Positions 1,013 to 47,302 of a stretch of 64,000 nt of DNA are shown one piece after another. The position numbers and the translations under genes were made by a program. Origin of the DNA: Anolis carolinensis (lineage: Eukaryota); assembly GCF_035594765.1 (NCBI RefSeq), contig NC_085843.1, forward strand, positions 193,665,971 through 193,729,970, given 5' to 3'. A model generated the notes under the pieces. That model ran no database searches, was not told the origin of the DNA, and saw only the letters and a list, made by a program, of their open reading frames with translations. The stretch's first letter is position 1; every line of letters begins with the position of its first letter.

Positions 1013-1042
1013 CTTTTAGTTCAGGTGGTGTCACTCCAGAAT
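1013..1042 (-). CDS. SRCR gene micro-exon, 30 nt, (D)SGVTPPELK
   Basis: ccacag acceptor and GTAAGT donor, phase 1-1; paralogs at 21277-21306 and 36220-36249 in the same position after a type I SRCR exon. Confidence 0.8.
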
Positions 1043-1530
1043 CTGTGGATGGAGACAGAAAGAGGCTCAAATACTTCATAAAATTGCTAAACTACCTGTG
1101 AGAGTAGGAGGTGGGAGGATCCATTTGCAAAGAAAGAGGTGATGGCTTATGTAGAGAAAGTTAAAATTTCTACTCTCAGATTGTGAAATAGACTTTTGCC
1201 TGATACTCCAGATTCTCCCAATGCATAATAATGGGTTAATGGTCTAACCTAGTAGATGGCAGATTCCTATGTCAAAATTCCCCTTTTAGCCCTGAACTCA
1301 ATGAAAAAAAAACCCCAGCACATTCCCCCCAAAATCTTTGTGGTTGATGAAATTAGCTCACTTTCCTTTATGATTATTTTCAGCCCTTCACATTCATGGA
1401 GTTTAGGGGTATAGGAAGGTGGAAACATTGAATATTCTAAGTCCCCCTATCAAGCATGACACAGACCCATTAACAGTGCCAGCAATTCACTTTTCCCACC
1501 CATCCTGATACAAGATCACATCAGCAAGAG

Positions 1531-1778
1531 TGGGTGAGCTCCTGCTATTAGCCCCAGCTTCTGTCAACATAGCAGTTCGAAAACATGCACATGTGAGTAG
1601 ATCAATAGGTACCGCTCCGGCGGGAAGGTAATGGTGCTCCATGCAGTCATGCCGGGCACATGACCTTGGAGGTGTCTACAGACAATGCCAGTTTTTCGGC
1701 TTAGAAATTGAGATGAGCATTAACCCCCAGTGTCAACACAACTAGACTCAATGTTGGGGAAAACCTTTACCTTTACCT
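1531..1778 (+). mobile_element. Sauria-type SINE, 5'-truncated
   Basis: Body matches the full copy at 55631-55955 (opposite strand); 3' tail ggggaaaacctttacctttacct. Confidence 0.8.
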
Positions 1779-2067
1779 ATACCATTTTAGATTTCATATA
1801 AATTGGATGAAATCAGCCACAGGAAATATCACATGGATCATGGCTGGAAAGCTTTGTACAATCCTGATGTTAATAGACTTATCTTTCATTAATCCTAGCC
1901 ACCTTCATGATGGGATAGACAGCTCATGAGCATCTTGGAGGTCACAAGTTCCCACCCAAAATATAAATTAATTTTCTAAATAAAAGGATCCCCATAGAGG
2001 CTGTGGGAGAGGGGGTATCAAGCAGAGGGATGTCCAATGAAGGTTTGCTAAAGAGAACAACAGCTAC

Positions 2068-2379
2068 CTGAGCAGATTACACCAGCATGCATGTAGTTTC
2101 CACATGTAGCAGGCCGATACTCATGAGAGCAATCTAGCAAATAATCTTCTTCACCAGAGCAATGTACTTTGGTCAACAAAGGGCCACCCGTTCCTTCCCC
2201 ATAAAAGCCATTGGTCAAAGCAGACAAAGCATGGCCACATCCAAGCTGCCGGCAGAAGACTTCAGCATCCTTTATGTCCCATTCTTCACTACAAACCACA
2301 GTCCGCCAACTTGCAAAGTAAGTGACTTCCACACGACCAGCACACCGATTCGGGCCACCCTCCAGCTGGAAAGACAAGA
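2068..2379 (-). CDS. Group B SRCR domain exon (type I, unit 1) of a DMBT1/CD163/SCART-like gene
   Basis: 312 nt, ccccaag acceptor and GTAGCT donor, phase 1-1; LSFQLEGGPNRCAGRVEVTYFASWRTVVC...HAGVICS with 8 Cys. Confidence 0.93.
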
Positions 2380-2744
2380 CTTGGGGATGGGAGAGGGGAT
2401 GTTAAAACATTTTTAAAAGTACTGCATATAACTTTATCACCATTACAAATGCACAATTTACAAACAATTGTCAGTTACAGTGCCTTATGTTAGAGTTAGC
2501 ACACCATAACTGCTCTGTAGTCTCATTTGCAATTAGGGCAGCAATGATTCAGCCACAGATGATTTTGAAATCTATCTTTAAAAAGCAGTCAGAAATCCAG
2601 AGAGAAAGAGTGTGGTGTTTCTGAGCAGGACATTGAAGAATCATGTGAGCAGCCCCCCTGCCCCAACCTGCAAGCCATGCTATGGGCAGCAGAAGCAGGG
2701 ACACTATCACAAGTCTTCATCACACCATTGTCCATAAGTAGACA

Positions 2745-3997
2745 CCCATCGTTGTGGGTGTATACAACAGACGTCTGAGCCAGAATAAAGAACCCGACGA
2801 AGAGATATAGCAGTCATGGGCGATTTCAACTATCTAGATATCTGCTGGAAAACAAACTCGGCCAAGAGTAAAAAGTCCAATAAATTCCTCGCTTGCCTTG
2901 CAGACAATTTTATGGTCCAGAAGGTAGAAGAGGCAGCAAGGGGATCGGCTACTCTTGAACTCATCTTAACAAACATGGAGGACTTGATCAATGCAGTTGA
3001 AGTGGTCAGATCCATAGGGGCAAGCAAGAAGTGACAAGTGGAGTGCCGCAGGGTTCTGTCCTGGGCCTGGTTCTGTTCAACATCTTTATTAACGACTTAG
3101 ACGAAGGGTTAGAAGGCATGATCATCAAACTTCAGACGACACCAAATTAGGAGGGATAGCTAATACTCCAGAAGACAGGAGCAGAATCCAAAATGATCTT
3201 AACAGATTAGAGAGATAGGCCAAAACTAACAAAATGAAGTTCAACAGGGACAAATGCAAGATACTCCACTTAGTAGAAAACATGAAATCCAGAGATACAG
3301 AATGGGGGATGTCTGACTCAACAGCAGTACGTGTGAAAAAGATCTTGGAGTCCTCGTGGACAACAAGTTAAACATGAGCCTACAATGTAATGCGGCAGCT
3401 AAAAAAGACAATGGGATTTTGACCTGCATCAATAGGAGTATAGTATCTAGAACCAGGGAAGTCATGCTACTCCTCTATTCTGCCTTGGTCAGACCACACC
3501 TGGAATACTGTGTCCAATTCTGGGCACCGCAATTGGAGATGTTGACAAGCTGGAATGTGTCCAGAGGAGGGCAACTAAAAAGATCAAGGGTCTGGAGAAC
3601 AAGCCCTATGAGGAGTGGCTTAAAGAGCTGGGCATGTTTAGCCTGCAGAAGAGAAGGCTGAGAGGAGACATGATAGCCATGTGAGAGGAAGTCATAGGGA
3701 GGAGGGAACAAGTTTGTTTTCTGCTGCCCTGGAGACTAGGATGAGGAACAATGGTTTCAAACTACAGGAAAGGAGACTCCACCTGAACATTAGGAAGAAT
3801 TTCCTCACTGTGAGAGCTGTTCAGCTGTAGAACTCTTTGCCCCGGACTGTGGTGGAGGCTCCTTCTTTGGAGGCTTTTAAGCAGGGGCTGGATGCTATCT
3901 GTCAGGGGTGCTTTGAATGCGATTTCCTACTTCTTGGCAGGGGGTTGGACTGGATGGCCCATGAGGTCTCTTCTAACTCTATGAGTCTATGATTCTA
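2745..3997 (+). mobile_element. CR1 LINE, internally deleted and frameshifted
   Basis: APE endonuclease motif MGDFNYLDICW joined directly to RT motif [12 protein letters not shown] near 3027; ends in ctatgagtctatgattcta CR1 tail. Confidence 0.9.
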
Positions 3998-4494
3998 AGC
4001 TGGAAGGGTCTGGTCATTTCATCCTGCAGTGCCTCTCTTGAGAGCAGCTCAGAGCACCACTACTCTGGATGGCTGACTGGGTTTTAAGATGATTTCAGAA
4101 GGCGGATGAGGAGTAAAAACATAACTACAACATCATGGCTATGTGTGTGATGCAGAATCTAAGCCATAGTGGCCAAGATTCCCTTGAAACCTGAAAGAAC
4201 ATTAAGTTGAACTTTCATCATAAAATAAGATTTAAAAGCTCAGCTATGTGCTGAATCTGTATTAGTGGTCCTGACAAACTCCATTGCACAAGGAGGTACT
4301 TGATATCTTCTTACACAAGAGGATAAAGCATACATAGGATTGTGTGGCCCTGAATATTGCAAACCTAGTCATGTGAATTCCGTGCAAGTGTATTTTGCCC
4401 TGTACATGTGAAGATGAAAAGCTCGAAGCTTTGATCTCTGCTTGAACTCAAATTTGCAAATTTTCAAAAATTGTTGTAATAAGATTGCCTAGAA

Positions 4495-4934
4495 CAGTAT
4501 TTCCCAACCTGGACGTCGGGACTCCTGGAGGGTTTGCAAGTGTGGTGTTGCCATATTTCTGATGGACTTAGGAACTATCTGTTAGTTATGGGAGTTTTGT
4601 GTGCCAAGTTTGCTTCAATTCCATTGTTGGTGGAGTTCAAAATGCTTTTTGATTGTAGGTTAACTATAAATCCCAGCAACTACAACTCCCAAAAGGCAAA
4701 ATTAATCCCCCCAACCCCACCAGTATTCAAATTTGAGCATATTGGATATTTGTGCCAAATTTGGTCCTATGAATGAAAATACATCCTGCATATCAGATAC
4801 TTACATTACTATTCATAACAGTAGCGAAATTGCAGTTGTGAAGTTGCAATGAAAATAATTTTGTGGTTGGGGGTCACCACAACATAAGGAACTGTATTAA
4901 GGGGTCGCGGCATGAGGAAGGTTGAGAACCACTG
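4495..4934. mobile_element. hAT non-autonomous DNA transposon
   Basis: CAGTATTTCCCAACCT...AGGTTGAGAACCACTG termini; perfect 8-bp TSD gcctagaa (4487-4494, 4935-4942). Confidence 0.85.
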
Positions 4935-5017
4935 GCCTAGAAGTATTTGTGCTAAATTAAACTCAGGTCAATTTATTATTGAAAAAGAAAACGCCTTAAA
5001 ACATGTGAAATACTCAC

Positions 5018-5035
5018 AATCCCCTACAGTTCCAG
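5018..5035 (-). CDS. SRCR gene micro-exon, 18 nt, (T)GTVGD
   Basis: ttttcttccag acceptor, GTGAGT donor, phase 1-1; conserved at 25569-25586 and 40815-40832. Confidence 0.8.
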
Positions 5036-5807
5036 CTGGAAGAAAATGCAAAAAGGTGATGGTTAACATCTGTAATCCATGTTTACATAAACATTGTTAG
5101 AAAAGTATCAACAGCCAAGTTATATAAAACTAAAGTGACTGTCCAATAGTGATAGAAAGCAGCTGGGGAGCCACAAGAACCAATGCAAATACAGAAATTG
5201 GTAGGATGCTCAGAGTTTTGAAGCTGGCTTTGTAGACTAGCTTTTTGCATAATAAAATTGAGTGAAATAGATTTGGACAGAAGTGTAAAGTGGTTGCAGA
5301 GCTGTCCTGAAATGATCCTGACTACAATCCCTATACAATCCGAACCATAACAGCTTTTTTTAAAAAAAAAAATCAACAAAACCTGACATATCATTTGCAA
5401 TAGCAATTTCCTCTCTCATAGAAGAACTGGATACAATTTCTCTTTCCTGTGAATACCGAGATGAGCAGGGAAAAATATTTTCCTTTTCTATTAGGAAACT
5501 TAGACTGATTTTTCTTCTTTGAATAACAGTATTAAAAGCTTTCAGGGCATATATTCTTCTAGAGTAGGAGTGGAGCCTGACACTTCCTCTGCCGGACCTG
5601 GAGGGATTCACCTTTCTCCATGTCCTCCGCATCCCAAATAAACCCACTTTTGGTTTCTCTGAATGCCAATGGTCATCATGAATCCAAGAGGGCATGAGGA
5701 AGCAAAAGGGATGGAAGAGGTAAAGATATGGCAGGCTGCCCTGGGGCTCCTGGGGTGCTGCACAAAGCCCTTTACCCCACATTAGAGAATAGAACAGGAA
5801 GACTTAC

Positions 5808-5825
5808 TTGGTTTATCGATTTCCT
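5808..5825 (-). CDS. SRCR gene micro-exon, 18 nt, (E)EIDKP
   Basis: tttctttcttaacag acceptor, GTAAGT donor; paralogs at 26390-26407 and 42480-42497. Confidence 0.8.
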
Positions 5826-6803
5826 CTGTTAAGAAAGAAATAACAAAACAGAAGGTAAGAATATGCTAGCTGTGATAGACTTTATGAAATTGGGGGAGTT
5901 GGAGGATATGTGCCTTAGTTTCAGAGCAAAAATTTGACTCTTTATGTTCTTTTAATTGTCTGATTTATAAAAAACCCCATCAAACTGGAGTCAAGGTGTG
6001 AATGCTAATTGATAATCCCAAGTAGAGTAGACCCATTGAATCAGTTGTTGAGTGCTAAATGAATAGTTTTATAAATTCCATTGATTCAATGGGTCTATTG
6101 TAGGCTGGTCTATAGGAGGATTCAGATCAAAGGAAGGAATAAAAGTTAATTTGCTGCTGGATCTAGTTTTAGTTTGTCTTTCTCTTCGAATACACCATTA
6201 CATATAATATTGGTAGTCCCCGAGTTACAAGCACCTCACTTACAAATTAGCCCATTGGCCATATCAAAACACTTGACAAACACATTTCACACATACACAT
6301 ACAGTGCACAATCCAAGTTAAAATAAACAAGCTGTTAACAAGAGATCAAGATCCCGATCATATATCTGCATCACCTCTACGGTTTACCCCAATCAACTCC
6401 AAGTATGCAGTTCTTAGCTGAGCTGCTTCATATAGGAAAAGGACCATTTTGTATGTTATTTTAGCATTCTTGCTGGCCAATAAGAATGCAGTTTTAATAT
6501 AAAAATGATGATGATCAGGATGATGATGATGATAATAATAACTTTATTAAGTAAATGGGTTCCTGGTTATGTACAAAAGTAATAGATACCCACAAATGTA
6601 GTGATTGCTTTAGCAATGTTCAGTCAACAAGTATAACGTAAGAACTCATATAGAATAAAATACAATATGTTCAGAATTCACAATTGTAATAAACATAATC
6701 CATACATCAAAAATGACTGTAGCTCAACAATATATGTTCTGTATATAATTGTTCACTTATTCAATCAGTTCATTGTGCTGAAGAGCAAGTAGGTCACAGT
6801 AGA

Positions 6804-6838
6804 TCACGACCGGTTTCGACTAGGTCTTCTTCAAGTGA
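6804..6838 (-). ncRNA. Minimal type I hammerhead ribozyme motif (PLE-associated)
   Basis: Reverse complement reads UCAC-UUGAAGA-A-GAC-CUA-GUC-GAAAC-CG-GUC-GUGA. Confidence 0.6.
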
Positions 6839-7343
6839 ATTAATCTGGGAAAATTATAATGAATTAACCAAAAACATATAAACATATAACATATCCATGT
6901 AAATGTCATTATAAATTTGACATAGAGACTTACAATAGTACATTCATATGTATACCCTTTATGCTCCTCTTTCTAGTTGTGTTTTTATGTCTTCTTCTCT
7001 TTTTTTCTAGAGTGGGTCTAAATAAAAGGAACAAACAGTGGCTATAACATAATTTAAGATTTTTAAGTTTCAATTAAGATAACCAAGAGCCAGCAGAGTA
7101 TCAACACTGTGAGTATATAAATAAGATACTATCTTAATTGAAACTTAAAAATCTTAAATTATGTTATAGCCACTGTTTGTTCCTTTTATTTAGACCTACT
7201 CTAGAAAAAAAGAGAAGACATAAAAACACAACTAGAAAGAGGAGCATAAAGGGTATACATATGAATGTACTATTGTAAGTCTCTATGTCAAATTTATAAT
7301 GACATTTACATGGATATGTTATATGTTTATATGTTTTTGGTTA

Positions 7344-8655
7344 GAATCATAGAATCATAGAATAGTAGAGTTGGAAGAGACCACATGGGCCATCCAGTCC
7401 AACCCCCTGCTAAGAAGCAGGAAATCGCATTCAAAGCACCCCCGACAGATGGCCATCCAGCCTCTGCTTAAAAGCCTCCAAAGAAGGAGCCTCCACCACG
7501 GCCCCGGGGAGAGAGTTCCACTGTCGAACAGCTCTCACAGTGAGGAAGTTCTTCCTGATGTTCAAGTGGAATCTCCTTTCCTGTAGTTTGAAGCCATTGT
7601 TCCGTGTCCTAGTCTGCAGGGCAGCAGAAAACAAGCTTGCTCCCTCCTCCCTTTGACTTCCCTTCACGTATTTGTACATGGCTATCATGTCTCCTCTCAG
7701 CCTTCTCTTCTGCAGGCTAAACATGCCCAGCTCTTTAAGCCGCTCCTCATAGGGCTTGTTCTCCAGACCCTTAATCATTTTAGTCGCCCTCCTCTGGACG
7801 CTTTCCAGCTTGTCAACATCTCCCTTCAACTGTGGTGCCCAAAATTGGACACAGTATTCCAGGTGTGGTCTGACCAAGGCAGAATAGAGGGGGAGCATAA
7901 CTTCCCTGGATCTAGACGCTATTCCCCTATTGATGCAGGCCAGAATCCCATTGGCTTTTTTTAGCAGCCGCATCACATTGTTGGCTCATGTTTAACTTGT
8001 TGTCCACGAGGACTCCAAGGTCTTTTTCGCACACACTGCTGTCAAGCCAGGCGTCCCCCATTCTGTATCTTTGATTTCCATTTTTTCTGCCGAAGTGAAG
8101 TATCTTGCATTTGTCCCTGTTGAACTTCATTTTGTTAGTTTCGGCCCATCTCTCTAGTCTGTCAAGATCGTTTTGAATTCTGCTCCTGTCTTCTGGAGTG
8201 TTAGCTATCCCTCCCAGTTTTGTGTCGTCTGCAAACTTGATGATCGTGCCTTCTAACCCTTCGTCTAAGTCGTTAATAAAGATGTTGAACAGAACCGGGC
8301 CCAGGACGGAGCCCTGCGGCACTCCACTTGTCACTTCTTTCCATGATGAAGACGACGCATTGGTGAGCACCCTTTGGGTTCGTTCGCTTAGCCAATTACA
8401 GATCGACCTAACCGTAGTTTTGTCTAGCCCACATTTTACTAGTTTGTTTGCCAGAAGGTCGTGGGGGACTTTGTCGAAGGCCTTACTGAAATCCAGGTAC
8501 GCTACATCCACAGCATTCCCTGTATCGACCCAACTCGTAACTCTATCGAAAAAAGAGATCAGATTAGTCTGGCATGACTTGTTTTTGGTAAATCCGTGTT
8601 GACTATTAGCAATGACCGCATTTGTTTCTAAGTGTTCGCAGACCACTTCCTTAAT
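7344..8655 (-). mobile_element. Young 5'-truncated CR1 LINE (RT domain plus 3' UTR)
   Basis: ORFs 7927-8646 ([23 protein letters not shown]) and 7431-7976, split by a 1-nt shift in a T7 run near 7956-7962; (ATTCTATG)n tail; tta on both sides. Confidence 0.95.
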
Positions 8656-8684
8656 TTAATTCATTATAATTTTCCCAGATTAAT

Positions 8685-8719
8685 TCACTTGAAGAAGACC
8701 TAGTCGAAACCGGTCGTGA
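8685..8719 (+). ncRNA. Minimal type I hammerhead ribozyme motif (PLE-associated), inverted copy
   Basis: tcacttgaagaagacctagtcgaaaccggtcgtga: stem I TCAC/GTGA, stem II GAC/GTC, palindromic ACCGGT at stem III, GUC cleavage triplet. Confidence 0.6.
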
Positions 8720-8809
8720 TCTACTGTGATCTACTTGCTCTTCAGCACAATGAACTGATTGAATAAGTGAACAATTATTTATATACAGAACATATATTGT
8801 TGAGCTACA

Positions 8810-8870
8810 ATAATAACTTTATTCTCATATCCCGCCACCATCTCCCCGAAGCGACTTGGGGCGGCTTAAA
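8810..8870 (-). mobile_element. L2-type LINE/SINE 3' end (target of the Penelope-like insertion)
   Basis: Reverse complement gccgccccaagtcgcttcggggagatggtggcgggatat...aataaagttattatt; the same terminus recurs near 12340-12393 and 27010-27060. Confidence 0.6.
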
Positions 8871-9020
8871 CAAGGCACAAGGTGCCTAAAAAACAGAACA
8901 TAAAGTAAACACAATATAAAATACAACTAAATAAAACATTTCAGCATGTAAATAACAACATAAAACTCAGATTAAAACTCAGATTAAAACAGCATGCATC
9001 CATCAATATATATATATACA

Positions 9021-9261
9021 CTAGCTTTGCCCGGCCACGCGTTGCTGTGGTTTATGGGAATCCTTTGTTGGCCAGGTGGAATAGCAGTGAATAGCCTTGC
9101 AGTCTCAAAGCCTGGCCATTTTCTGGAGTAGCTGGAGCTTTTGTTGTATGAACGTAGAGGCATGGATGAGGGGTTGTGCTGCCAAGTTTAGTGTTTCTGG
9201 GATGTGTAGTTTTGCTGTTTTGTCCTAGGTCAACATTTCACTACCCTTTTATATATATAGA
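9021..9261 (-). mobile_element. Short non-autonomous Helitron
   Basis: 5' TCTATATATATAAAAG; 3' GC-rich hairpin ccacagcaacgcgtggccgggc followed by CTAG and T; no TSD. Confidence 0.8.

Positions 9262-12390: not shown

Positions 12391-12448
<58 letters not shown>
12215..12448 (+). mobile_element. L2-type LINE 3' end with (ATC)n tail
   Basis: gtgagccgctccgggtccccgttggagagatggaggtggcatacaaaaataaa followed by (ATC)n at 12394-12448. Confidence 0.65.
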
Positions 12449-13039: not shown

Positions 13040-13351
13040 CTTGGCAGAGAATAGTGGCATCCTGTTGATGAGTACAGCTATGGACCCCCCATCCACGGTT
13101 CTTGCAGTCCCACAGGAAGGCTTCATCCCCCTCACACTGGACACCATCTAGGAGGATTCGGCCTGAGCCCTGGCCAAATCGAGGCCAAGGAACAATTTGG
13201 ACAGCATTTCCGCAGCCAAGCTGCCTACAGACAACTTGGGCGTTCTTCATGTCCCAGTTGTTGCCACAAACAGTCCCCCAGGCACCTTCATAATAAATTT
13301 CAACACGTCCCTCGCAGTAGTTGTAGGTGCCTTCTAGCCTCAGGGACAGTT
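13040..13351 (-). CDS. Group B SRCR domain exon (type II, unit 1)
   Basis: 312 nt, ttcgcag acceptor and GTATGC donor, phase 1-1; ELSLRLEGTYNYCEGRVEIYYEGAWGTVCGNNW...HQQDATILCQ with 8 Cys. Confidence 0.94.
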
Positions 13352-15502: not shown

Positions 15503-15535
15503 CTGGATTTGTAGGTGTAACCGTGGTTGATGATG
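15503..15535 (-). CDS. Ser/Thr-rich micro-exon, 33 nt, SSTTVTPTNP
   Basis: accag acceptor, GTAAGT donor, phase 1-1; one of eight paralogous linker exons. Confidence 0.75.
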
Positions 15536-19019: not shown

Positions 19020-19037
19020 CTGGTGTTGTAGATGTCA
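19020..19037 (-). CDS. Candidate Ser/Thr micro-exon, 18 nt (TSTTP), using an internal AG; ancestral acceptor mutated
   Basis: GTAAGT donor intact; the paralogous accAG acceptor reads accAA at 19053-19054; in-frame cacAG at 19038-19039. Confidence 0.45.
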
Positions 19038-19988: not shown

Positions 19989-20021
19989 CCAGTGTTGTAG
20001 GTGTCACCGTGGTTGATGATG
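19989..20021 (-). CDS. Ser/Thr-rich micro-exon, 33 nt, SSTTVTPTTL
   Basis: accag acceptor, GTAAGT donor, phase 1-1. Confidence 0.75.
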
Positions 20022-20772
20022 CTGGTGTCATAGTGGAATGATAATTTAAAAAAACAGGGAAGTTATTATTAAGTTCAGAATTATCCAATTGCATTTAATA
20101 CAGAGAATGAATACTGAATAACCCTCCAGAGCCCCAGAGTGAATGGGAGACCCTCCAAATATAGCAAGTTGATTGAATTTACGATGCTACATAGTAAACA
20201 AAATAAAACACATCTGATCGCATCCAATGACCGGAATGTCTCAATGTTATACCATGTTTAGAAAGTACGGTAGCTTTCTAAAACTTCCTGACAGCATGAC
20301 TCCTTCCCAGAACTGGAATTCTGGAAGTTGTAACCAGTGAAATAGCTTTTTCACTTCTGTATTCATTGCACCCATTGAATGTGATGCTTCTCGAGTAAAT
20401 ACCTCAAGATTGTCCCCAGCAATTAAACCTCTTCTACTTTCCTCCTTCTTTCAGGATCTCTGGAGTCTTTAACTTTAAAAATACTGTTGTGTTGCAGAAA
20501 CAGAGACAGAAAGATCTTAGGCACACTACATGAGCCAGCCTCACAAAGTATTCCTGTAATGAACATGAAGAGCAGCATAGGGCTATGGTAGCAGACATTC
20601 CTTGAGAAGTCTTTTTTATTTTCTGGATGGAATATATGTTGTTTTAATTGAGTTTGACCCTGGGGACATGTGCCTTTATGTTTGCTTTTATCAAATTTTA
20701 TTTGCAAAATATATAAGTAAACAATCTCTATGTTTTTTTTATAAATTCTAATAGTCCTTTTTTCCTCTACTG

Positions 20773-21276: not shown

Positions 21277-21306
21277 GTGCATGTGTAGGTATTGTCATTC
21301 CAGAAT
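21277..21306 (-). CDS. SRCR gene micro-exon, 30 nt, (D)SGMTIPTHA
   Basis: ccacag acceptor, GTAAGC donor, phase 1-1. Confidence 0.8.
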
Positions 21307-22897: not shown

Positions 22898-23209
22898 CTG
22901 AGCATATAACACCAGCATGCTTGTAGTTTCCACATGTAGCAGGTCGATACTCATAAGAACAAGAAAACAAATAATCTTCTTCACCAGAGCAATCTACTTT
23001 TGTCATCAAAGGGCCACCTCTTCCTTCTCCAAAAAAGCCATTGGTCAAAGCAGCCACAGCATGGCCACAGCCAAAATACTGGCAGATAACTTCAGCGTCC
23101 TTTATGTCCCATCCTTCACTGCAAATCACAGTCCGCCAGCTTGCAAAGTAAGTAATTTCAATGCGACCAGCACACCCATTGGGACCATTCTCCAGCTGTA
23201 AAGACAGGA
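22898..23209 (-). CDS. Group B SRCR domain exon (type I, unit 2)
   Basis: 312 nt, phase 1-1, AG/GT ends; LSLQLENGPNGCAGRIEITYFASWRTVICSEGW...HAGVICS with 8 Cys. Confidence 0.92.
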
Positions 23210-25568: not shown

Positions 25569-25586
25569 CATCCCCTACAGTTCCAG
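25569..25586 (-). CDS. Micro-exon, 18 nt, (T)GTVGD
   Basis: ttttcttctag acceptor, GTGAGT donor. Confidence 0.8.
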
Positions 25587-26389: not shown

Positions 26390-26407
26390 TTGGTTTATAG
26401 ATTTCAT
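26390..26407 (-). CDS. Micro-exon, 18 nt, (D)EIYKP
   Basis: ttcttaacag acceptor, GTAAGT donor. Confidence 0.8.
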
Positions 26408-28924: not shown

Positions 28925-29236
28925 CTTGGCAGAGAATAGTGGCATCCTGTTGATGAGTGCAACTATGGACTCCCCATCCACGGTTCTTGCAGTCCCACAG
29001 GAAGGCTTCATCTCCCTGACACTGAACACCATCTAGAAGGATTCGGCCTGACCCCTGACCAAACCGAGGCCAAGGAACGACTTGGAGAGCATCTCCGCAG
29101 CCAAGCTGCCTACAGACAACCTGGGCGTTCTTGATGTCCCAGTTGTTGCCACAAACTGTCCCCCAGGCGCCTTCATAATAAACTTCAACACGTCCCTCGC
29201 AGTAGTTGTAAGTGCCTTCTAGCCTCAGGGACAGTC
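28925..29236 (-). CDS. Group B SRCR domain exon (type II, unit 2)
   Basis: 312 nt, tttgcag acceptor and GTATGA donor; GLSLRLEGTYNYCEGRVEVYYEGAWGTVC...DATILCQ. Confidence 0.94.
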
Positions 29237-29440: not shown

Positions 29441-29473
29441 CTGGTGTTGTAGGTGCCACTGTGGTTGATGATG
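29441..29473 (-). CDS. Ser/Thr-rich micro-exon, 33 nt, SSTTVAPTTP
   Basis: accag acceptor, GTAGGT donor, phase 1-1. Confidence 0.75.
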
Positions 29474-30043: not shown

Positions 30044-30172
30044 NNNNNNNNNNNNNNNNNNNNNNNNNNNNNNNNNNNNNNNNNNNNNNNNNNNNNNNNN
30101 NNNNNNNNNNNNNNNNNNNNNNNNNNNNNNNNNNNNNNNNNNNNNNNNNNNNNNNNNNNNNNNNNNNNNNNN
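30044..30172. other. Assembly gap (129 N)
   Basis: Run of n. Confidence 1.
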
Positions 30173-31808: not shown

Positions 31809-31826
31809 CTGGTGTTGTTGAAGATA
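31809..31826 (-). CDS. Ser/Thr micro-exon, 18 nt, SSTTP
   Basis: accag acceptor, GTAAGT donor, phase 1-1. Confidence 0.7.
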
Positions 31827-34103: not shown

Positions 34104-34121
34104 TTGGTGTTGTTGATAATA
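34104..34121 (-). CDS. Ser/Thr micro-exon, 18 nt, LSTTP
   Basis: accag acceptor, GTAAGT donor, phase 1-1. Confidence 0.7.
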
Positions 34122-36219: not shown

Positions 36220-36249
36220 ATTGCTGCTTAGGTGTTGTCATCCCAGATT
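36220..36249 (-). CDS. Micro-exon, 30 nt, (E)SGMTTPKQQ
   Basis: tcacag acceptor, GTAAGC donor, phase 1-1. Confidence 0.8.
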
Positions 36250-37406: not shown

Positions 37407-37806
37407 TGATTCGTTTTTTAAATGGATAGAAAAGTGTATGATATTTATGAATTATGTAGCATCATAATTACATTGCTGCATCATGGACACTGGCATGGCA
37501 CTCCCACACACCCAATCCCTATTTATTAGGCAGTTACTGTTGCAATAGTTGGAGGTCTATCTCTGGTGCAATAGGCACAAACCATCTCTGGTGCAATAGG
37601 CACAAACAGTATCTCGGTCACAATTCCCCTTAACAGGGAAGATCAGTTTTTTGCAGGTGGGAAAGAATGATAGAAAGCGATTTCCTTAGAAATATGGGAA
37701 CAGATGCCTGCTGATCATGACAGCTTTTTCCAGGTAAATGCAAATTGGGAGACCTTCACAGTGCCTGTGTAGCCTAAATGCATTTATAACTGATACAGAA
37801 GTCCAC

Positions 37807-38730: not shown

Positions 38731-39013
38731 GTGAAGTTCACATAATGTTTGTACATTTCTCAAACCATTCCAATGGCATTCATTTATAAAGAAATTGTAA
38801 CTTGTTTAGTGACTGTGATTTTATATCATATTCAAACAATTGGATCACCATCTGGAGGAACATGTGTTACCATCCCAGATATAAATGCATTATTCTAAAC
38901 AACACAATCTCAATTGAGGCAGAGGAGGGATCAATGCATGCATGTGAGGGATGGAAATTTTTTCTATAAAATGCCAATGAGGACATTTATAACAACAGGA
39001 GAGCAATGGTTAC

Positions 39014-39325
39014 CTGAGCATATAACGCCAGCGTGCTTGTAGTTTCCACAGGTAGCAGGCCGATATTCGTAAGAACAAGAAAACAAATCATAGTGCTCAT
39101 TAGAGCAATCTACTTTGGTCATCAGAGGCCCACCTCTTCCTTCTCCAAAAAGGCCATTCGTCAAGGCAACCAGAGCATAGCCACAACCAAGCTGTTGGCA
39201 GACAGTTTCAGCATCCTTTATGTCCCATCCTTCACTGCAAATCACAGTCCGCCAGTTTGCAAAGTAAGTGACTTCAACACGACCAGCGCATGAATTGGGA
39301 CCATTCTCCAGCTGTAAAGATATGA
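39014..39325 (-). CDS. Group B SRCR domain exon (type I, unit 3)
   Basis: 312 nt, ctccaag acceptor and GTAACC donor; ISLQLENGPNSCAGRVEVTYFANWRTVIC...HAGVICS. Confidence 0.93.
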
Positions 39326-39807
39326 CTTGGAGAGGGGGGAGGGGATGTTAAAAACATTTTAAAATAGTCTTGCAAATATCTATATTGTGATTACCAACAC
39401 TTAAAAAACAATTTAGGGTATGAGGACAGAAGTACGCCAAAATGGCAACCACCTGTTATTGGGAAACTTCAGAGAAACCATTACACAAGGAGGTATTGAT
39501 ACTTCTTTGCAAAAGGGGATGAGATGTTTGTTTATCCCCTGGTAGTACAAACCTAAATCACCAAGAAGATTCCTCTCCAGTGTCTATAAGTATGAACAGA
39601 TCTTTATTCTGTCATACATGAGACTCGGTGCTTTGATGACTGCCTGAACTGAAATTTTAAAATTTTCAAAAATTACTCAGAATAATTTGGTCTCATTTCA
39701 AGAGTTAGTTAAATGTGCATGATTTAAACATTTGAGTTAAAAACACAACTTTGTAATGTGCATCAGAGAAAATGCCTTGAGTTGAGTAGTTGAAGCAATT
39801 TAAATAT

Positions 39808-39992
39808 TGTGTTATTGAATGCTTTCATGGCAGGAATCACAGGGTTGTTGTGTGTTTTCCAGGTTGTATGGCCATGTTCCAGAAGTATTCTCTCCTGACG
39901 TTTCGCCCATGTCTATGGCAGGCATCCTCAGAGGTTGTGAGGTATATACTTCTGGAACATGGCCATACAGCCCGGAAAACACACAACAACCC
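39808..39992 (-). mobile_element. Penelope-like pseudo-LTR fragment with inverted arm and minimal hammerhead motif (39894-39934)
   Basis: Inverted pair 39842-39888 / 39947-39992; minus strand CCU-CUGAGGA-UGCC...GGGC-GAAAC-GUC-AGG. Confidence 0.75.
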
Positions 39993-40814
39993 AATTTAAA
40001 TATTGAAGCTAAGATTATATTATAGTGTTGAATTCAGTTATCAGTCTCAAACAGAGCAGACCCACTGAATTAATAAAATCATATAATGTTTGGCTTACCA
40101 TTTATCGGTCCGTTTAATGGATTTACTCTAGTCAAGTCAATTGGATTTAGGTTATCTAGTATACATTCAAATCTTTACGGTATACAATTTTTTGGAAATT
40201 GTTTTGAATGCTTTTTTTCCAGATTTTTTGTGACTGTAAATTGCTACTGTATTCTAACTGAAGCTGAAAATAAACAGATTGGGTTCTCCCAAACTATCAC
40301 TACAATTTACTGTTCAGTAACAGCTTGATTTTAATTTTTCCCAAAGTTTGGAAAACATATCTTTTGGACAAGTGTCTCCGTGTTGGCTGGAGGTACTGGG
40401 AGTCCTAGTCCAATAATGTATCTTTCAAGGTCGTCTCCATGGAAAGACAAATAAATCTTTGGGTTGTGCGTATACAAGCAACATGACAAAAACATTTGGG
40501 TTGCAGATTGGTTTAAAATATTATAGCTCATCCACCCCTCAATAGAGAGATATAATTTCCCAGTCCTTGAATGGAGTGAAATTATTAAAATTAAGTACCA
40601 TAATTTTTCTTAAAAAGGAGAACGACAGATAAGACTGCAGGGGTCTAACAACTAGCCATTAGAGACACATTTAAACCACACTAGCATGTTTATTACATTG
40701 AAAGAGTTTCATGCAAAATTCTTTACTCATATGGCCTTAGAAGCTTACTTTGTGTTAAACTAAGGGCAATGTTGTATTTAAAAGCAATTACTTTAATATA
40801 TGTGAAATACTCAC

Positions 40815-40832
40815 AATCTCCTACAGTTCCAG
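40815..40832 (-). CDS. Micro-exon, 18 nt, (A)GTVGD
   Basis: ttttcttccag acceptor, GTGAGT donor. Confidence 0.8.
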
Positions 40833-42479
40833 CTGGAAGAAAATGTAAAAAAAAATGATGGTTAACATCTGTAATACTTGTTTATGAAATAATTCCTTCC
40901 CTCAACAAAATTAAGTTCAGCAGCATTGATAAAAAATAGTAACAGCCAAGTACCATAAAAGTAAAGTGATTATTTAATATTGATAGAAATCAGCTGGAGA
41001 GTGACAAAAGAAAGAACCGGTGCAACTGTAGGAATTGATTGGATGTTCATATTTTAGAAGCTTTTTGTATAACAAATTAATTGCAATGAATATGGACGTA
41101 AGTGTAAAATCATTGCATTATTATCATGATATGATCCTGATTTTACCATTTAGATTACCCAGACTATAATCATTCTTTTAAAAAACAAAACTGTCATGTC
41201 ATCTGCAATTTCAATTTCCTCTCACACAGAAAAATTGGGTAGAATTTCTCTTCCTTGTGAATGCTGCATTCAACAGAATACGGAATGTTTTTCCTTTTGT
41301 ATGAGGATGACATGGCGAGATTTTTCTTCTTCCAGTCAAATTATTAAAAGCCTGCAGGGCAAAGATTTTCAAGAGCTGGAGTGGGAAATATACTTTGTTA
41401 ATGGGGTCTGATTCTGATATTTGCATTAAATAAGTTCTACAGTTATTATTCTTATTGGTACTGTTCCATTATCCAGGTGAAGGCCACAAGGGAGTGTTAG
41501 AGAGAGAAGGATAGTTCATTTTACAGGGGACAAGTTGAAAGAGGAAAACCCATTCCCCCAGTTTAGCTGGTTATTTCGCCTCCCCACTTCCCATTTCATA
41601 AACTAAGGTTGTTTCCATGATGGGGACATGGGTGGGGGGAATAACAGGAAAACAGGAGGAAATGGTTTTACTACTTCAACCCACCTTCCACCCCTGTAAA
41701 ATGGACTATCCTGCTCTCTCTAGCACCCCTTGTGGCCTCCTCCCAGATAATGGAACAGTATCTTATAGGTGATATAATAATAATGATGATGATGTTGATT
41801 ATGATGATGTTTATTATTATGTTTATTTATACCCAACTTTATCTTTCCTGAAGGAGACTCTAAGTGGCTTGCAATTAAAAGTGTGACCACATAATTTAAA
41901 ATATACAAATATGCAAACATTAAAACAGAATTAATCATAACAGCATGAACAATTACATGTAACCACCATTACATTTTCTCACTTATGGTCCTAACATATC
42001 ATAGAGTTGCATTGGAGAACCTATAAAATCATAGACAGGTACCTAGGAATTTGCTAGGTCTTCCAATACAACTCTATGGTAACTTTCAGAGGAAGTATAC
42101 CATAAAATTCTCCTCTTTTTTGTTTCTCAGAATATGGTAACTCTATGATATTCATTCATCTCATGCAGTTAGTACATGCCATATTGAGCCACAATAAGTT
42201 CAGTAATTTGTCAAGTCACAGAATTCTCATGCATGCCATCCAGTGAACATGAACTTGCCATGTTGGGAGAAAGGTAAGGAATAGATAAGCCATCAAGCTT
42301 CTACACAGTATTGTGGCATCGCCTTATCTACCAAGGGATGTCTTACACACTGTCCATTTCTGTGCCTGGAGCTGTTTTTGTATTTCACAGGATGAGGAAG
42401 CTCTCAGTTGATTTGTGGGGAAAAAATAAAAATATTCAAGAAAAGAGAGAAGATTCATACATATAAAAGATAAATTTAC

Positions 42480-42497
42480 CTGGTTTATAGATTTCAT
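42480..42497 (-). CDS. Micro-exon, 18 nt, (D)EIYKP
   Basis: ttcttaacag acceptor, GTAAAT donor. Confidence 0.8.
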
Positions 42498-44097
42498 CTG
42501 TTAAGAAAGAAATGGCAACAATAAAAGATAAGAATATGGCAACTATATGTAGACTGCTAGTCTGTATCTTTTGATTGTCTGATACACTTTAATTTTTGAT
42601 TTCACATAAGAAAAATAAGAAACATATAACCAACTGACATTAGACTATGGTTAAGTTAGCAAATATTGTTAATTAGGAAGAACATACAAATGGTGAGAAA
42701 CTGTAGTCACTTGCTTTTGCCTGAGTTTTTTGTGAACGTAGCAAGATTCCAAACCCTTGTCCATCCCACCACACTGTTAATTGGGTAAAAATTACTATGC
42801 ATTTTGAACTTAGTTTGCATCTCCTAATGTAACAAAGGATGAGGATAGATAGCAGATAAGGAGAGATAAACTGAGCCTTTTTAAAGCAGCTGAAAAAGTG
42901 GTTAGCTTTTACCAAGTTGTAATTTGTCTATGTATACTGAACACTAGTGTCTGACACCATAGGAAAATGCAAAAATGTTAGTTAAACAATTCCCATTACC
43001 CAGACTAAACTTTTGGAGCCAGACATACAAATTCAGCTTTGATAATATTGAAATTCTTCACTCAAAACTTATTCTGCAAAACAATTTCCCTGACAACATG
43101 AAGGAAATGTTATTCCATGCCAGATAAAGTTATTTCCACTCTTCATAATAGTTTGATCCACTGTAACCACAAAAGAGGTCAAAACATCGGAGTTCTCATA
43201 GGAACTCTGCTCTTCTCCCCTACGGACTGACAGGCACTGTAGAAACTTTCCATGTGAATCTCCTTCCCTTCGTGTTTGGAAATCCTTCCCTACTTGTTTG
43301 TATTTATTTAAATAAGTACTGAAATGGCATGGGAATGAGTGCCATAGTGCTAAGAGCTGGCCCATAGGTAACCGAAAACATGTGAAACAACTATATGATC
43401 TTGAGCTGTAACGACTTTCTCTTTTTCTTGCTTTCTGGCTTTCATGTGGTTCCATAATTCATACTGAATTAAAAGCAAACCTAATCAGTATATGCAAAGA
43501 TTGCAGATGAATACAGGAATGAATCCAAGTAGTTACCTTCCATGTGTCTTGAATCATTGACCACGTGGTAAAATTATAAAGGCTATGGAAGGTAGTAGCT
43601 CAATCATTTATGTCCTTCTGCCAAGTTGTTAAGAAGAATTTCACCATACATATCATGTGTGGAGGTACGATTAAGTAGTTGCAAGATTATGTGTAATAAA
43701 AACAAAGAACAAATGAATACCTTATCTGGTTTGTTCATGTCTACTGTTGTAAAACAGAGCCTTACCTTTTGGACTGTAATTCCCAGAATACTAGTTCTCA
43801 AGCTATTAATTAGTACTATGCAACACAATGTTTGTTCCTGGGTTATAAATGTCATTTCCTAATTGATTCTATCATTAAAAACAAGGAAAAGGTTTAATAA
43901 ACTTCCTGCAGCACATTTTGCTATAGTTTTAAAATAAATATCTCATGGATTTTCAACCAACTCAACATAGTTTGTGGCAGCCACAAAAATAAAGTTTTTG
44001 GAGTATAACAACTGCTTTCAAAGGAAATACCACACAGTTAAACAGGAATAACACTTTCAAACCAGGGACAGATTTTTTTTTCAAATTTTGTTACATA

Positions 44098-44715
44098 CAG
44101 TAGAACCCCGGTAGTCCAAGTTAAATGGGCAGATCTCAGCTCGGTCAACCCGGATCACTCGGATTATGAGGTTTCCTCTCCTTTTGGCAGCCGCTTAGAC
44201 CCAGGGAAGCACGAAGTGTGCTGCTTCCCTGGGTTCAAGCGCCCACCGAATGGAGAGGAAACTTCTCCCTTCGGCGGGCGTTTGGCCCAGCCATTGAGAG
44301 GGTGAAGGGGGAGGGCCGCAAAAGCCCTTCCCGTTCACCTGCCCGCCTGTGCTTCGGCTCCTTCGTCACACCGGGGGCCGGCAGCACCGGCGCCCGGCGT
44401 GGCGAAGGAGCCAGCTGTGCGTGTTGCTAGGTAGATAGCAAGCTACCTAGCAACACGCACGGGCATGCTCTCCCCTTGGGAGGTGCCCCCTGCGTGTTGC
44501 TAGGTAGCTTGCTATCTACCTAGCAACACGCAGGGGGCACCTCCAAAGGGGCAAGCGCCCTGTACGTGTTGCTAGGTAGCTTGCTATCTACCTAGCAACA
44601 CGCACATCTAGCCAGCCAGCGAGCAGGTGAACGGGGAGGGCCTTTGCGGCCCTCCCTGTTCACCCGCTTGCACGGAGGCTCAGACGAGCGGGGCTCGGAC
44701 GAGGGGATTTTACTG
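44098..44715. mobile_element. GC-rich Tc1/mariner-type non-autonomous element
   Basis: TA|CAGTAGAACCCC...GGGGATTTTACTG|TA; three internal 40-nt hairpins. Confidence 0.8.
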
Positions 44716-45056
44716 TAGTTGTATCTGTGGTTGTGGCAACTTTGTCAGGCTTTTGCAGAAAGTTGCTCAATGGCAGCTGGTGAATACCTTATTATTGGGC
44801 AGTGAATCCTCTTTTAATTTTATTTCAAACATTTAAACAAGCTATCCAGGGTACTAGAATGATTTGCAGGAGGAGTTTATCATCTTAAAAAGCTCAATCG
44901 AAGATTATACCAAAGGCTAGAAGAGATGCATAGCCCAATGAGACAGAAGTCATGGGTCACCAGTGAAGTCTCCACTTGGTTAGTGATCATCTGGCTCTGT
45001 CCACAGATGAGAAGCATTTCAAGATAAAGACAGTGCTTCAAAGAATCATTGCATAC

Positions 45057-45077
45057 CTTGGCAGAGAATAGTGGCAT
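45057..45077 (-). pseudogene. Duplicated last 21 nt of a type II SRCR exon with its donor site
   Basis: cttggcagagaatagtggcat identical to exon ends at 13040, 28925 and 45250, followed on the minus strand by GTATGC and intron homologous to 12860-13039. Confidence 0.8.
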
Positions 45078-45249
45078 AGGTGTAGTTCATAAACTTTAAA
45101 GCTCCATTAAAGTTTATACCAAGAGTTAGAAGAGATTCACTGCCCAATGAGATAGAAGACATGGGTCACCACTGAAGTCTCCACCTGGTCAGTGATCACC
45201 TGGCTGGCTCCATCCACAGATGAGAAGCATTTCAAGAATCTGTTCATAC

Positions 45250-45561
45250 CTTGGCAGAGAATAGTGGCATCCTGTTGATGAGTGCAGCTATGGACCCCCC
45301 ATCCACGGTTCTTGCAGTCCCACAGGAAGGCTTCATCCCCCTCACACTGGACACCATCTAGGAGGATTCGGCCTGAGCCCTGGCCAAATCGAGGCCAAGG
45401 AACAATTTGGACAGCATTTCCGCAGCCAAGCTGCCTACAGACAACCTGGGAGTTCTTGATGTCCCAGTTGTTGCCACAAACGGTCCCCCAGGCGCCTTCA
45501 TAATAAACTTCAACACGTCCCTCACAGTAGTTGTAGGTGTCTTCTAGCCTCAGGGACAGTC
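45250..45561 (-). CDS. Group B SRCR domain exon (type II, unit 3)
   Basis: 312 nt, tttgcag acceptor and GTATGA donor; GLSLRLEDTYNYCEGRVEVYYEGAWGTVCGNNWDIKNSQVVC...DATILCQ; not reported on this strand by the ORF track. Confidence 0.93.
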
Positions 45562-46159
45562 CTGCAAAAGAGCAAAAGTAAATAGATCAGTGTGGTTTTC
45601 ACTTGACTACACTCAAGAATGGGTTTCAACCTCATTATTTCATAGAATGTGTGAAATCCTTGAAGACCAAACTTTCCTTGGCAATTATTTAAGGCAAAGC
45701 AACATTTAAATTAGAGAAATGTTAGAGCCCAGGTCCATGTTTTGTCTCAGCTCTTGTGAGTTAAGAAGTCATTGATAATTTGAATGCTGGTAGAAGCCTC
45801 TTCCTTTCTTGTGTGAGAACTATGAATAAATTGCAATAAAAGGTAGCTCCAGCTAATTTCATTGAAATGCAATTATCTGATTTTTGCCTTTCTTCTCCTC
45901 ATTGTATTTTAACTTCTTTACCTCATGAAAAAGCCAGAGAAACTTTGAAAGCTGGCATAATGTATTTTCTGCAATTTGGTTTGTCAATAAAGATACTACT
46001 TATTTGTAGATTTTGGAATTTTAAAAAATTTAATGCAATGTTTAATGCATAAAACACACACATAAAAAAACAACAAAACAATTGTTTACCCCTCTCACAT
46101 CTCTGGAAATGACACACCTGAAAAGTGTGTGTGTGTGTGTGTGGGGGGGGGGGGGGTCA

Positions 46160-46590
46160 AGAATAATAACTTCCAATGTTCCAATAAATCTTTTTAATAT
46201 TAATCTTTCTTCTATAAATGACCTTCTATAAAATACTATTTGACCCTACTATTCTTCAAATCTCACTATTTGTTTTTCCAAAAAATAATCTCACATGCAC
46301 AAAAAAACCAATTAACAATTCCAATCTTTGTTGGGTCAACGAAATAATTTTTATCTAATCAAAATACTTACGGTAACTTGTCCTTCTCAGCAAGGGCATT
46401 AACTTTCATTAACCAATCCTCCTGTGGCAAAGTAGGAGTATCTTTCCATTTTTATACATACAACAATCTGTAATAACCTATTGCAATAGTCTTCCACTTT
46501 CCTTCTCAATATGATCTTTCATTGGAGTCAGCAAGAAAGAATCATACTTCAATCTCACATAGTATTTCCTTCCAGATTTCTATTTCTGTG
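46160..46590 (-). mobile_element. Degenerate L1-like 3' fragment
   Basis: Minus-strand remnant resembling the L1 ORF2 C-terminus (WKDTPTLPQEDWL) plus T-rich 3' UTR. Confidence 0.45.
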
Positions 46591-46605
46591 CAAGATAGGC
46601 ACAAG

Positions 46606-46867
46606 CAGGGCCGTAGCCAGAAAAAAATTTCGGGAGGGGTTTTGAAAATTTAACCCCTAGCACACACCCCTCCCCGCTACAAACCTGTCAATATCTGCTT
46701 GAGATAGTGCCTGGAGGGACTCTTAATGTTTTGTGTCTCATAGACTTAGCATGGGGATTTGGTTAACCAGTTAAAATTCATGAGTAAACCAGGTTTTTTT
46801 TATAACCTGAACAATTTCGGGGGGGGGGGGGTTGAACCCCTAAAACCGCCCCCTCGCTACAGGCCTG
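46606..46867. mobile_element. hAT MITE (same family as 38268-38539)
   Basis: CAGGGCCGTAGC...GCTACAGGCCTG; perfect TSD ggcacaag. Confidence 0.85.
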
Positions 46868-47248
46868 GGCACAAGCCTTCAAGTATTTGTACATCTTTCT
46901 GCAGTCAATGGTTGCTTTATCTGTTTAAAATGTTGCATGCCTTCAAACAATGTCCAGTTTATGGTGACCCTAAGACAAACCCAACACGGGATTTTTCTCG
47001 TAAGATTTCTACAGAGAGGGTTTGCATTTGCCTTCTTCTAAGGCTGAGAGAGTATATCTTGACCAAGATCATCCAACGAGTTTCCATGCCCATGTCAGGA
47101 TCTCAATCCTGGAGTGGTAGTCCAGTGCTCAAGCATCATGTTGGCTCAGGTAGACCCTACTGAATTCAGTCTTACTTTAATTCTACATAAATATAGAACT
47201 GCAATGTTACATTTCCCCCATGTGAACTAGAGTGTTACTAAGACAAAC

Positions 47249-47302
47249 CTGGTGTTGTAGGTGTCACTGTGGTTGATGATGATGTGGTTGATGACGATGG
47301 TG
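47249..47302 (-). CDS. Ser/Thr-rich micro-exon, 54 nt, PSSSTTSSSTTVTPTTP
   Basis: ttgtag acceptor, weaker GTTTGT donor, phase 1-1; internal 15-nt duplication relative to the 33-nt paralogs. Confidence 0.65.

What the first reader, a model, noticed from the sequence alone, without database searches (positions are those of the whole stretch)
1013..47302. Modular scavenger receptor whose linkers are built from symmetric micro-exons
Seen: six 312-nt SRCR exons alternate type II and type I in three tandem units, separated by 17 micro-exons of 18, 30, 33, 54 or 63 nt. All are phase 1-1 with AG/GT ends, and the joined frame has no stop: [S/T exons]-SRCR II-(D/E)EI(Y/D)KP-GTVGD-SRCR I-(D/E)SGxT-[S/T exons]. 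The II-to-I spacer is fixed at two 18-nt exons, while the I-to-II spacer has 3 or 4 Ser/Thr exons. Known: DMBT1-type genes have small interspersed-domain exons. Inference: a fixed SRCR pair on an O-glycosylated stalk whose length could be tuned by skipping any subset of exons in frame. Automated annotation probably misses these exons.
Basis: partly seen in the sequence, partly recalled or inferred. Interest (0 to 1): 0.72.

Follow-up and report, generated by a model that had tools for sequence, protein, structure and literature searches.

The report
Lizard gene fused from three copies
This lizard gene is three tandem copies of a smaller two-domain gene spliced into one message, with a tiny exon multiplied to form the spacers; it likely encodes a secreted, DMBT1-like defence protein.

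Summary
The anatomy is real: six 312-nt SRCR exons and 17 phase 1-1 micro-exons on the minus strand. The gene is larger than reported: signal-peptide exon at 55428-55359, a seventh SRCR just outside the window, and no transmembrane, CUB or ZP segment. It is therefore predicted secreted, not a stalked receptor. It lies between HTRA1 and a DMBT1-type gene.

Assembled contigs from six runs splice the micro-exons in. The 114-nt second spacer is complete in 3 of 4 runs, and no listed joint skips a single micro-exon. Tuning by skipping is unsupported, and RefSeq already holds 8 of the 17 exons.

The gene likely arose by tandem duplication of a small squamate two-SRCR gene, then fusion by splicing past the dead first exons. 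Spacer length differs between anole species. Six of seven domains lack the acidic calcium site DMBT1 uses for ligands, throughout squamates. New variant of a known kind; moderate interest.

The parts
55478..55484 (-). TATA-like TATAAAA 49 nt upstream of the ATG
   Evidence: sequence; function untested
55359..55428 (-). Exon 1 coding part: signal peptide, phase-1 donor
   Evidence: matches N-terminus of P0027; only hydrophobic segment of the model
47249..47302 (-). Exon 2, 54 nt Ser/Thr; likely source of all Ser/Thr cassettes; weak donor
   Evidence: joint in run X6; in P0027
45250..45561 (-). SRCR type II, unit 1
42480..42497 (-). 18-nt micro-exon DEIYKP
   Evidence: in P0027
40815..40832 (-). 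18-nt micro-exon GTVGD
   Evidence: joint 40815-39325 in X1, X7; in P0027
39014..39325 (-). SRCR type I, unit 1 (acceptor is the upstream AAG)
36220..36249 (-). 30-nt micro-exon; donor also read through into the intron (short two-SRCR form)
   Evidence: joint 39014-36249 and read-through contigs in X1, X7; P0027, P0039
35848..36002 (-). Decayed copy of promoter and first ~40 nt of exon 1, in front of unit 2
   Evidence: 73% over 155 nt, E 9e-18
34104..34121 (-). 18-nt Ser/Thr cassette; last base A here, G in X1, X7, X12
   Evidence: in P0027
33647..33709 (-). 63-nt Ser/Thr cassette expanded by an (ACA)n microsatellite
   Evidence: masked as repeat, so no joint seen
31809..31826 (-). 18-nt Ser/Thr cassette
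   Evidence: inclusion inferred only
29441..29473 (-). 33-nt Ser/Thr cassette
   Evidence: joint 29441-29236 in X7
28925..29236 (-). SRCR type II, unit 2
26390..26407 (-). 18-nt micro-exon DEIYKP
   Evidence: contig lengths compatible
25569..25586 (-). 18-nt micro-exon GTVGD
   Evidence: contig lengths compatible
22898..23209 (-). SRCR type I, unit 2
21277..21306 (-). 30-nt micro-exon
   Evidence: joint 21277-20021 in 4 of 4 runs
20398..20712 (-). Decayed copy of promoter and exon 1 in front of unit 3 (1-nt deletion after first ATG, eroded TATA, weakened donor)
   Evidence: 72% over 321 nt, E 3e-37
19989..20021 (-). 33-nt Ser/Thr cassette
   Evidence: joint in 4 of 4 runs
19020..19037 (-). 18-nt remnant of a 33-nt cassette whose AG became AA; internal CAG used, frame kept
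   Evidence: only the four-exon subset gives the 114 nt seen in X5, X6, X9
15503..15535 (-). 33-nt Ser/Thr cassette
   Evidence: by length and end letters
13040..13351 (-). SRCR type II, unit 3
5808..5825 (-). 18-nt micro-exon EEIDKP
   Evidence: in P0024; no reads laid
5018..5035 (-). 18-nt micro-exon GTVGD
   Evidence: in P0024; no reads laid
2068..2379 (-). SRCR type I, unit 3
1013..1042 (-). 30-nt micro-exon; next exon is the seventh SRCR (type III) 1751 nt further on, outside the window (L007:9261-8950)
   Evidence: P0024

Best explanation
This is one spliced lizard gene of the DMBT1 cluster, likely formed by tandem duplication of a small two-SRCR gene with its promoter, and predicted to encode a secreted protein of about 910 residues: signal peptide, three SRCR II-I pairs on Ser/Thr spacers, and a last SRCR. 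Shown: dead copies of exon 1 lie in front of units 2 and 3; the splice from the 30-nt exon passes over the unit-3 copy to a paralogue of exon 2; all eight Ser/Thr exons are paralogues. Inferred: because exon 1 ended in phase 1 and every later exon is phase 1-1, the copies could fuse in frame, and old exon 2 was multiplied into a mucin-like spacer. Spacer length is set mainly in the DNA (cassette gain, loss, splice-site shifts of 6 or 15 nt, a microsatellite), with micro-exons mostly included. Read-through at the first 30-nt exon likely also yields the ancestral short form. Function (inferred, about 0.45): a soluble agglutinin or pattern-recognition protein that gains avidity from three copies of a II-I module, binding by a surface other than the usual acidic calcium site.
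For: Exon model and open frame. Exon-1 relics at 36002-35848 and 20712-20398, both between the 30-nt exon and the first Ser/Thr cassette; tile scores 187 and 99 against a background of 22 +/- 3, maximum 36, over 1052 tiles. Eight cassettes align with their flanks; nhmmer finds exactly these 8 in 264 kb. One-unit orthologues in Pogona (II-I-III), gecko and snakes (II-I), and multi-unit models in A. sagrei. Joints with GT..AG ends in 6 runs from 5 studies; one contig spans I(2) to II(3) with 114 nt in 3 of 4 runs. Spacers are 54 and 38 aa here, 39 and 30 aa in A. sagrei. Neighbours are HTRA1 and an SRCR-CUB-ZP gene with the same kind of micro-exon candidates. Tree groups II, I and III with DMBT1-like and SSC4D domains, apart from CD163, WC1 and SSC5D (SH-aLRT 86). 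Site-2 acidic triad intact in 0 of 15 type II, 0 of 16 type I, 4 of 4 type III and 78 of 134 other domains (site from PMC7043408). In human DMBT1, DNA copy number rather than splicing sets length (PMC9038570, passages).
Against: No contig spans the whole gene, and spacer 1 was not bridged: in X1 and X7 the contig from I(1) runs through the 36220 donor into the intron, and the 33709 exon was masked. Current RefSeq models end after unit 1 (P0027, P0039). Only 15 of 80 and 15 of 24 joints were displayed. The runs are only guessed to be RNA, and no DNA run was laid as control. The 3' end after SRCR III is unresolved (models disagree). Tissue and ligand are unknown. The tree is a quick one on 101 columns. 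The relics were not checked in A. sagrei DNA. The calcium-site mapping rests on motif spacing, not on a structure.
Confidence: 0.72

Rival explanations
1. One reading: spacer length is regulated by in-frame skipping of subsets of micro-exons.
For: All internal exons are 3n and phase 1-1. Several splice sites are weak or polymorphic (47249 donor; 34104 last base). One contig in X6 joins exon 2 to a unit-2-like SRCR II across 18 kb, which could be whole-unit skipping.
Against: Spacer 2 is complete in one contig in 3 of 4 runs. No displayed joint skips a single micro-exon (30 of 104 shown). Symmetry follows from origin, and the neighbouring DMBT1-type gene shows it too. The X6 contig fits a two-unit allele equally well.
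Confidence: 0.13
2. The units still act partly as separate two-SRCR genes: unit 1 mostly ends by read-through, and units 2 and 3 start from their own relic promoters; the full-length fusion is minor.
For: Relics keep an ATG and a GT; the unit-3 relic has a later in-frame ATG giving a 16-residue hydrophobic leader in phase 1. Read-through contigs after 36220 in X1 and X7, contigs over both relics, and RefSeq's split models.
Against: The unit-2 relic is cut after ~40 coding nt and the unit-3 relic has a frameshift after its first ATG. The 21277-20021 splice passes over the unit-3 relic in 4 of 4 runs. A. sagrei models run through both spacers.
Confidence: 0.12
3. A membrane scavenger receptor of the CD163/WC1 kind whose transmembrane exon was missed.
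For: Alternating divergent SRCR types recall CD163/WC1 cassettes; bird CD163/WC1-like proteins fill the hit list (at 37-46% identity).
Against: HTRA1 ends about 3.3 kb after SRCR III on the other strand; no hydrophobic acceptor-led frame was seen there. Orthologues end within a few residues. Best solved-structure domain match is DMBT1 (121 and 91 bits) over CD163 (109 and 74).
Confidence: 0.03

Closest known systems
DMBT1 / SALSA / gp340 (human and orthologues)
   Same: Secreted group B SRCR array with Ser/Thr-rich interspersed spacers; one exon per SRCR; next to HTRA1 and a DMBT1-type gene here; length variation by DNA repeat number (PMC3100851, PMC5435793, PMC9038570, passages). That human SIDs are encoded by small exons is recalled, not found in the passages read.
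   Different: No CUB or ZP; two alternating divergent SRCR types (38% identical) rather than near-identical repeats; acidic cation site absent from 6 of 7 domains; repeat unit includes a dead promoter/signal exon; spacers derive from exon 2.
Squamate 'DMBT1-like' two- or three-SRCR proteins (e.g. XP_072851545 Pogona, XP_034292276 Pantherophis, XP_048362843 Sphaerodactylus)
   Same: Direct orthologues: II 75-80%, I 62-74% identical, same 12-residue linker, same loss of the acidic site.
   Different: One II-I unit only; snake and gecko models lack domain III; no Ser/Thr spacers between units.
SSC4D / SSC5D and other soluble group B SRCR proteins
   Same: Soluble, SRCR-only, with Ser/Thr/Pro-rich linkers.
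   Different: This genome's SSC4D-grouping domains lie on another contig (C9); none groups with types II or I.
CD163 / WC1
   Same: Arrays built from cassettes of unlike SRCR domains.
   Different: Membrane-anchored (recalled); fall outside the group holding II, I and III.

Membership tests
Group B SRCR superfamily | About 100-110 aa SRCR domain, 8 cysteines, one exon per domain | tested here: met
   PF00530 over cut-off in 7 of 7 exons; 8 Cys in six, 9 in type III; 312-nt single exons
DMBT1 proper | Signal peptide and tandem SRCR domains separated by Ser/Thr-rich spacers | tested here: met
DMBT1 proper | C-terminal CUB domains and ZP domain | tested here: not met
   no CUB or ZP match on the minus-strand gene; both present in the plus-strand neighbour
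DMBT1 proper | Acidic cation-binding site 2 (D1019, D1020, E1086 of SRCR8) in the repeated domains | tested here: not met
   G/N/Q in type II, S/E/K or M in type I; intact only in type III (mapped by motif)
DMBT1 proper | VEVLxxxxW bacteria-binding motif | tested here: inconclusive
   VEVYYEGAW in II and III-like form, VEVTYFASW in I: tryptophan and spacing kept, leucine replaced
DMBT1 gene cluster (paralogue) | Position beside HTRA1 and DMBT1-type genes; domains nearest to DMBT1-like domains | tested here: met
   tree support moderate (86)
DMBT1 proper | Mucosal expression, O-glycosylation, microbe agglutination | not testable with these tools
   runs carry no tissue labels; no assay
CD163 / WC1 | Transmembrane segment and cytoplasmic tail | tested here: not met
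   orthologue ends
CD163 / WC1 | Domains group with CD163/WC1 domain types | tested here: not met
   (quick tree, few columns)

The most novel reading that the evidence does not exclude
A squamate-specific, calcium-independent SRCR II-I module with an unknown ligand, multiplied in anoles by fusing whole gene copies. Valence (2, 5 or 7 domains) is still switched by read-through, whole-unit skipping or copy-number alleles, and possibly by surviving internal promoters. It would be a dated, readable case of a post-signal-peptide micro-exon being recruited as a modular spacer.
Probability: 0.3. Interest if true: 0.62.

Novelty: new variant of a known kind. Interest (0 to 1): 0.42.

Why it matters
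The locus keeps the record of how a multidomain protein was built: fossil first exons mark the duplication units, and every change to the spacer exons (acceptor shifts of 6 and 15 nt, 15-nt losses, a microsatellite gain) kept the frame. It also defines an apparently unstudied squamate SRCR subfamily that has lost the ligand site proposed to be general for the fold (PMC7043408) while staying conserved, which makes a different binding mode testable. In practice it shows a gene that current annotation splits. The micro-exon linker design itself is ordinary for the DMBT1 cluster.

Tried and rejected
No RNA holder listed on record: one search gave only runs guessed to be RNA. No DNA run was laid as control, and the table of joined forms in other runs was not given.

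A generic splice-site scan (recalled, approximate weights) did not separate true micro-exons from the opposite strand.

AlphaFold2 on P0027 alone and with a 24-row alignment failed (mean pLDDT 38.4 and 37.6), so no fold search was run and rigidity of the II-I pair is untested.

The representative search returned only multi-SRCR proteins; 0 of 149 new rows had the type I signature, which is uninformative because ranking sums domains. The Atlas gave generic SRCR/CD5L clusters. The careful 169-row tree did not finish; quick trees were used. A genome search with exon 1 found only itself and missed even the two relics, so it cannot exclude distant copies.

Rejected readings: the downstream CAG as type I acceptor (out of frame; the joint shows the upstream AAG); the 33-nt form of the 19052 cassette (no AG); the 'GPH' end of P0024 as established (its exon overlaps HTRA1 on the other strand).

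Earlier-finding look-ups returned nothing.
Full report
Observation. The gene is on the minus strand. Six 312-nt SRCR exons alternate type II and type I, each AG..GT, phase 1-1, with 8 cysteines, and each passes Pfam PF00530. A plain splice-site scan is no better than the opposite strand, so the case rests on triplication with flanks, spliced contigs and orthologues. One cassette (19052) has lost its AG and survives as an 18-nt exon through an internal CAG; the 47249 donor is weak.

The whole gene. Exon 1 (ATG 55428, donor 55359, TATA-like element at 55484-55478) encodes a signal peptide. A seventh SRCR, here called type III, lies 1751 nt beyond the last micro-exon, outside the window. The 25-exon model gives about 913 residues with one hydrophobic segment, the signal peptide; its last few residues are uncertain. 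HTRA1 (named from recalled domain content) ends about 3.3 kb further on, on the other strand. On the other side an SRCR-CUB-ZP gene runs away from it, with three more ZP-bearing loci beyond. No CUB or ZP match falls in this gene. Named proteins from a contig of the same length identify the species as most likely Anolis carolinensis.

Transcripts. One search listed 18 holders of the query among 24 rows, none on record as RNA. I laid six runs from five studies; all are contigs, and no DNA control was laid. Joints with GT..AG ends place six micro-exons directly: 21277-20021 in 4 of 4 runs, 40815-39325 and 39014-36249 in 2 of 4, 29441-29236 in 1 of 4, and the 47249 donor in 1 of 4. In X5, X6 and X9 one contig runs from I(2) to II(3) with 114 letters between; of the candidate exons only the full set 30+33+18+33 gives 114. 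That adds 19037 and 15535, for 8 of 17. RefSeq proteins P0027 and P0024 contain 8 of 17, and the union is 13 of 17. Exons 33709, 31826, 26407 and 25586 rest on paralogy, contig length and A. sagrei models. None of the joints shown (15 of 80, 15 of 24) joins SRCR to SRCR directly or skips one micro-exon.

Results against a single full-length message. In X1 and X7 the contig from I(1) reads through the 36220 donor into the intron, matching the end of RefSeq isoform P0039, and spacer 1 was not bridged. In X6 one contig joins exon 2 to a unit-2-like SRCR II across 18 kb; this is whole-unit skipping, a two-unit allele or a converted allele, and I cannot tell which.

Origin. Decayed copies of the promoter and exon 1 lie at 36002-35848 (73% over 155 nt) and 20712-20398 (72% over 321 nt), each between the 30-nt exon and the first Ser/Thr cassette. 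They score 99 and 187 against a background maximum of 36 over 1052 tiles. The first is truncated; the second has a 1-nt deletion after its first ATG, an eroded TATA and a weaker donor, though a later ATG remains in frame. All eight Ser/Thr exons, including exon 2, align with their flanks. Orthologues have one unit: II-I-III in Pogona, II-I in gecko and snake models; the two A. sagrei models together show three units. I infer that the stretch from promoter to 30-nt exon was duplicated twice in the anole line, that the inner first exons decayed, and that splicing joined each 30-nt exon to the next copy's exon 2, in frame because all are phase 1. Exon 2 then multiplied locally. Lengths of 54, 33, 18 and 63 nt arise by acceptor shifts of 6 or 15 nt, 15-nt gains or losses and an (ACA)n expansion, all multiples of three. 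Spacers are 54 and 38 aa here and 39 and 30 aa in A. sagrei models. Type II copies have lower dS (0.07-0.22) than type I (0.30-0.50), suggesting gene conversion.

The module. The II-to-I linker keeps its length in 20 of 20 proteins parsed, and dN/dS between units is 0.12-0.37. Among 1955 domains from the 295 proteins then held, squamate orthologues are 75-98% (II) and 62-98% (I) identical, and the next best are 59-60% and 49%; the searches were word-limited, so absence from turtles, birds or tuatara is weakly shown. A quick tree places II, I and III with DMBT1-like and SSC4D domains, apart from CD163, WC1 and SSC5D (support 86), and type I is sister to the first SRCR of the neighbouring gene (96-98). 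The acidic site that SALSA needs for its ligands (PMC7043408, passages) is intact in 0 of 15 type II, 0 of 16 type I, 4 of 4 type III and 78 of 134 other domains (rows include near-duplicate models, and the mapping is by motif spacing). Both folds failed, so a rigid pair is untested.

Mechanism. Shown: exon structure, splicing of most micro-exons, exon-1 relics, cassette paralogy, missing acidic residues. Inferred: secretion, O-glycosylated extended spacers (by analogy, PMC3100851 passages), avidity from three modules (as for DMBT1 alleles, PMC5435793 passages), a defence role, and length set mainly by DNA (as in human DMBT1, where 4 of 5 long reads matched the gene's repeat number, PMC9038570 passages).

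Comparison and novelty. It works like the SRCR/SID part of DMBT1 but is not DMBT1 proper: CUB, ZP and the cation site are missing. The neighbouring DMBT1-type gene has phase-1 micro-exon candidates of 21-42 nt between its SRCR exons (prediction only), so the linker design is standard for the cluster. Paper searches found no study of this gene: 0 papers; 2 listed, unrelated by title and abstract; 2, unrelated; 20 of 6142 listed, none with DMBT1; 15 of 111 listed, none with 'microexon'. The library lacks most subscription journals. PMC6896824 and PMC4851238 were read as passages and added only isoform and copy-number background; no supplements were opened.

Verdict. Observation confirmed; interpretation partly supported; new variant of a known kind; interest 0.42.

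Noticed in passing
L007:9261-8950 (minus strand, just outside the window): Seventh SRCR exon (type III) with an odd ninth cysteine and the only intact acidic site 2; the gene's 3' end after it is unresolved.
   Followed up: partly
window 34104: Last base of the micro-exon (donor -1) is A in this genome and G in runs X1, X7 and X12, which would strengthen the donor.
   Followed up: no
window 36220-33700 and 21277-19000: Contigs cover the introns after the 30-nt exons, including both exon-1 relics; read-through ends, retained introns or internal starts are all possible.
   Followed up: partly
L010 (about window 84984-85400 if extended, plus strand): First SRCR of the neighbouring DMBT1-type gene is a divergent sister of type I; skink models P0033 and P0060 carry a type I domain, this domain and CUB domains in one protein.
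   Followed up: partly
L013-L015 (about 119000-143000 if extended, plus strand): Neighbouring gene has three near-identical ~10-kb SRCR-CUB-SRCR repeats with 21- and 24-nt phase-1 micro-exon candidates.
   Followed up: partly
G000:C3:193829896, 193869153, 193942836, 194037498: Four ZP-domain loci in the cluster, so the DMBT1 region is expanded in this lizard.
   Followed up: no
G000:C2:4.87-5.07 Mb: Large cluster of several dozen SRCR exons on another contig, not identified.
   Followed up: no
window 2900-4000 and 7350-8650: CR1-type LINE fragments in introns; a 240-nt inverted pair at about 6720-6960 and 7080-7330 flanks the second (seen by eye).
   Followed up: no
snake orthologues P0031, P0044, P0058: Their short tail after the 30-nt exon begins DF or FG like the start of SRCR III, possibly a truncated remnant of that exon.
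   Followed up: no
window 30044-30172: The only N stretch lies inside an intron of spacer 1; a hidden micro-exon there cannot be excluded.
   Followed up: no
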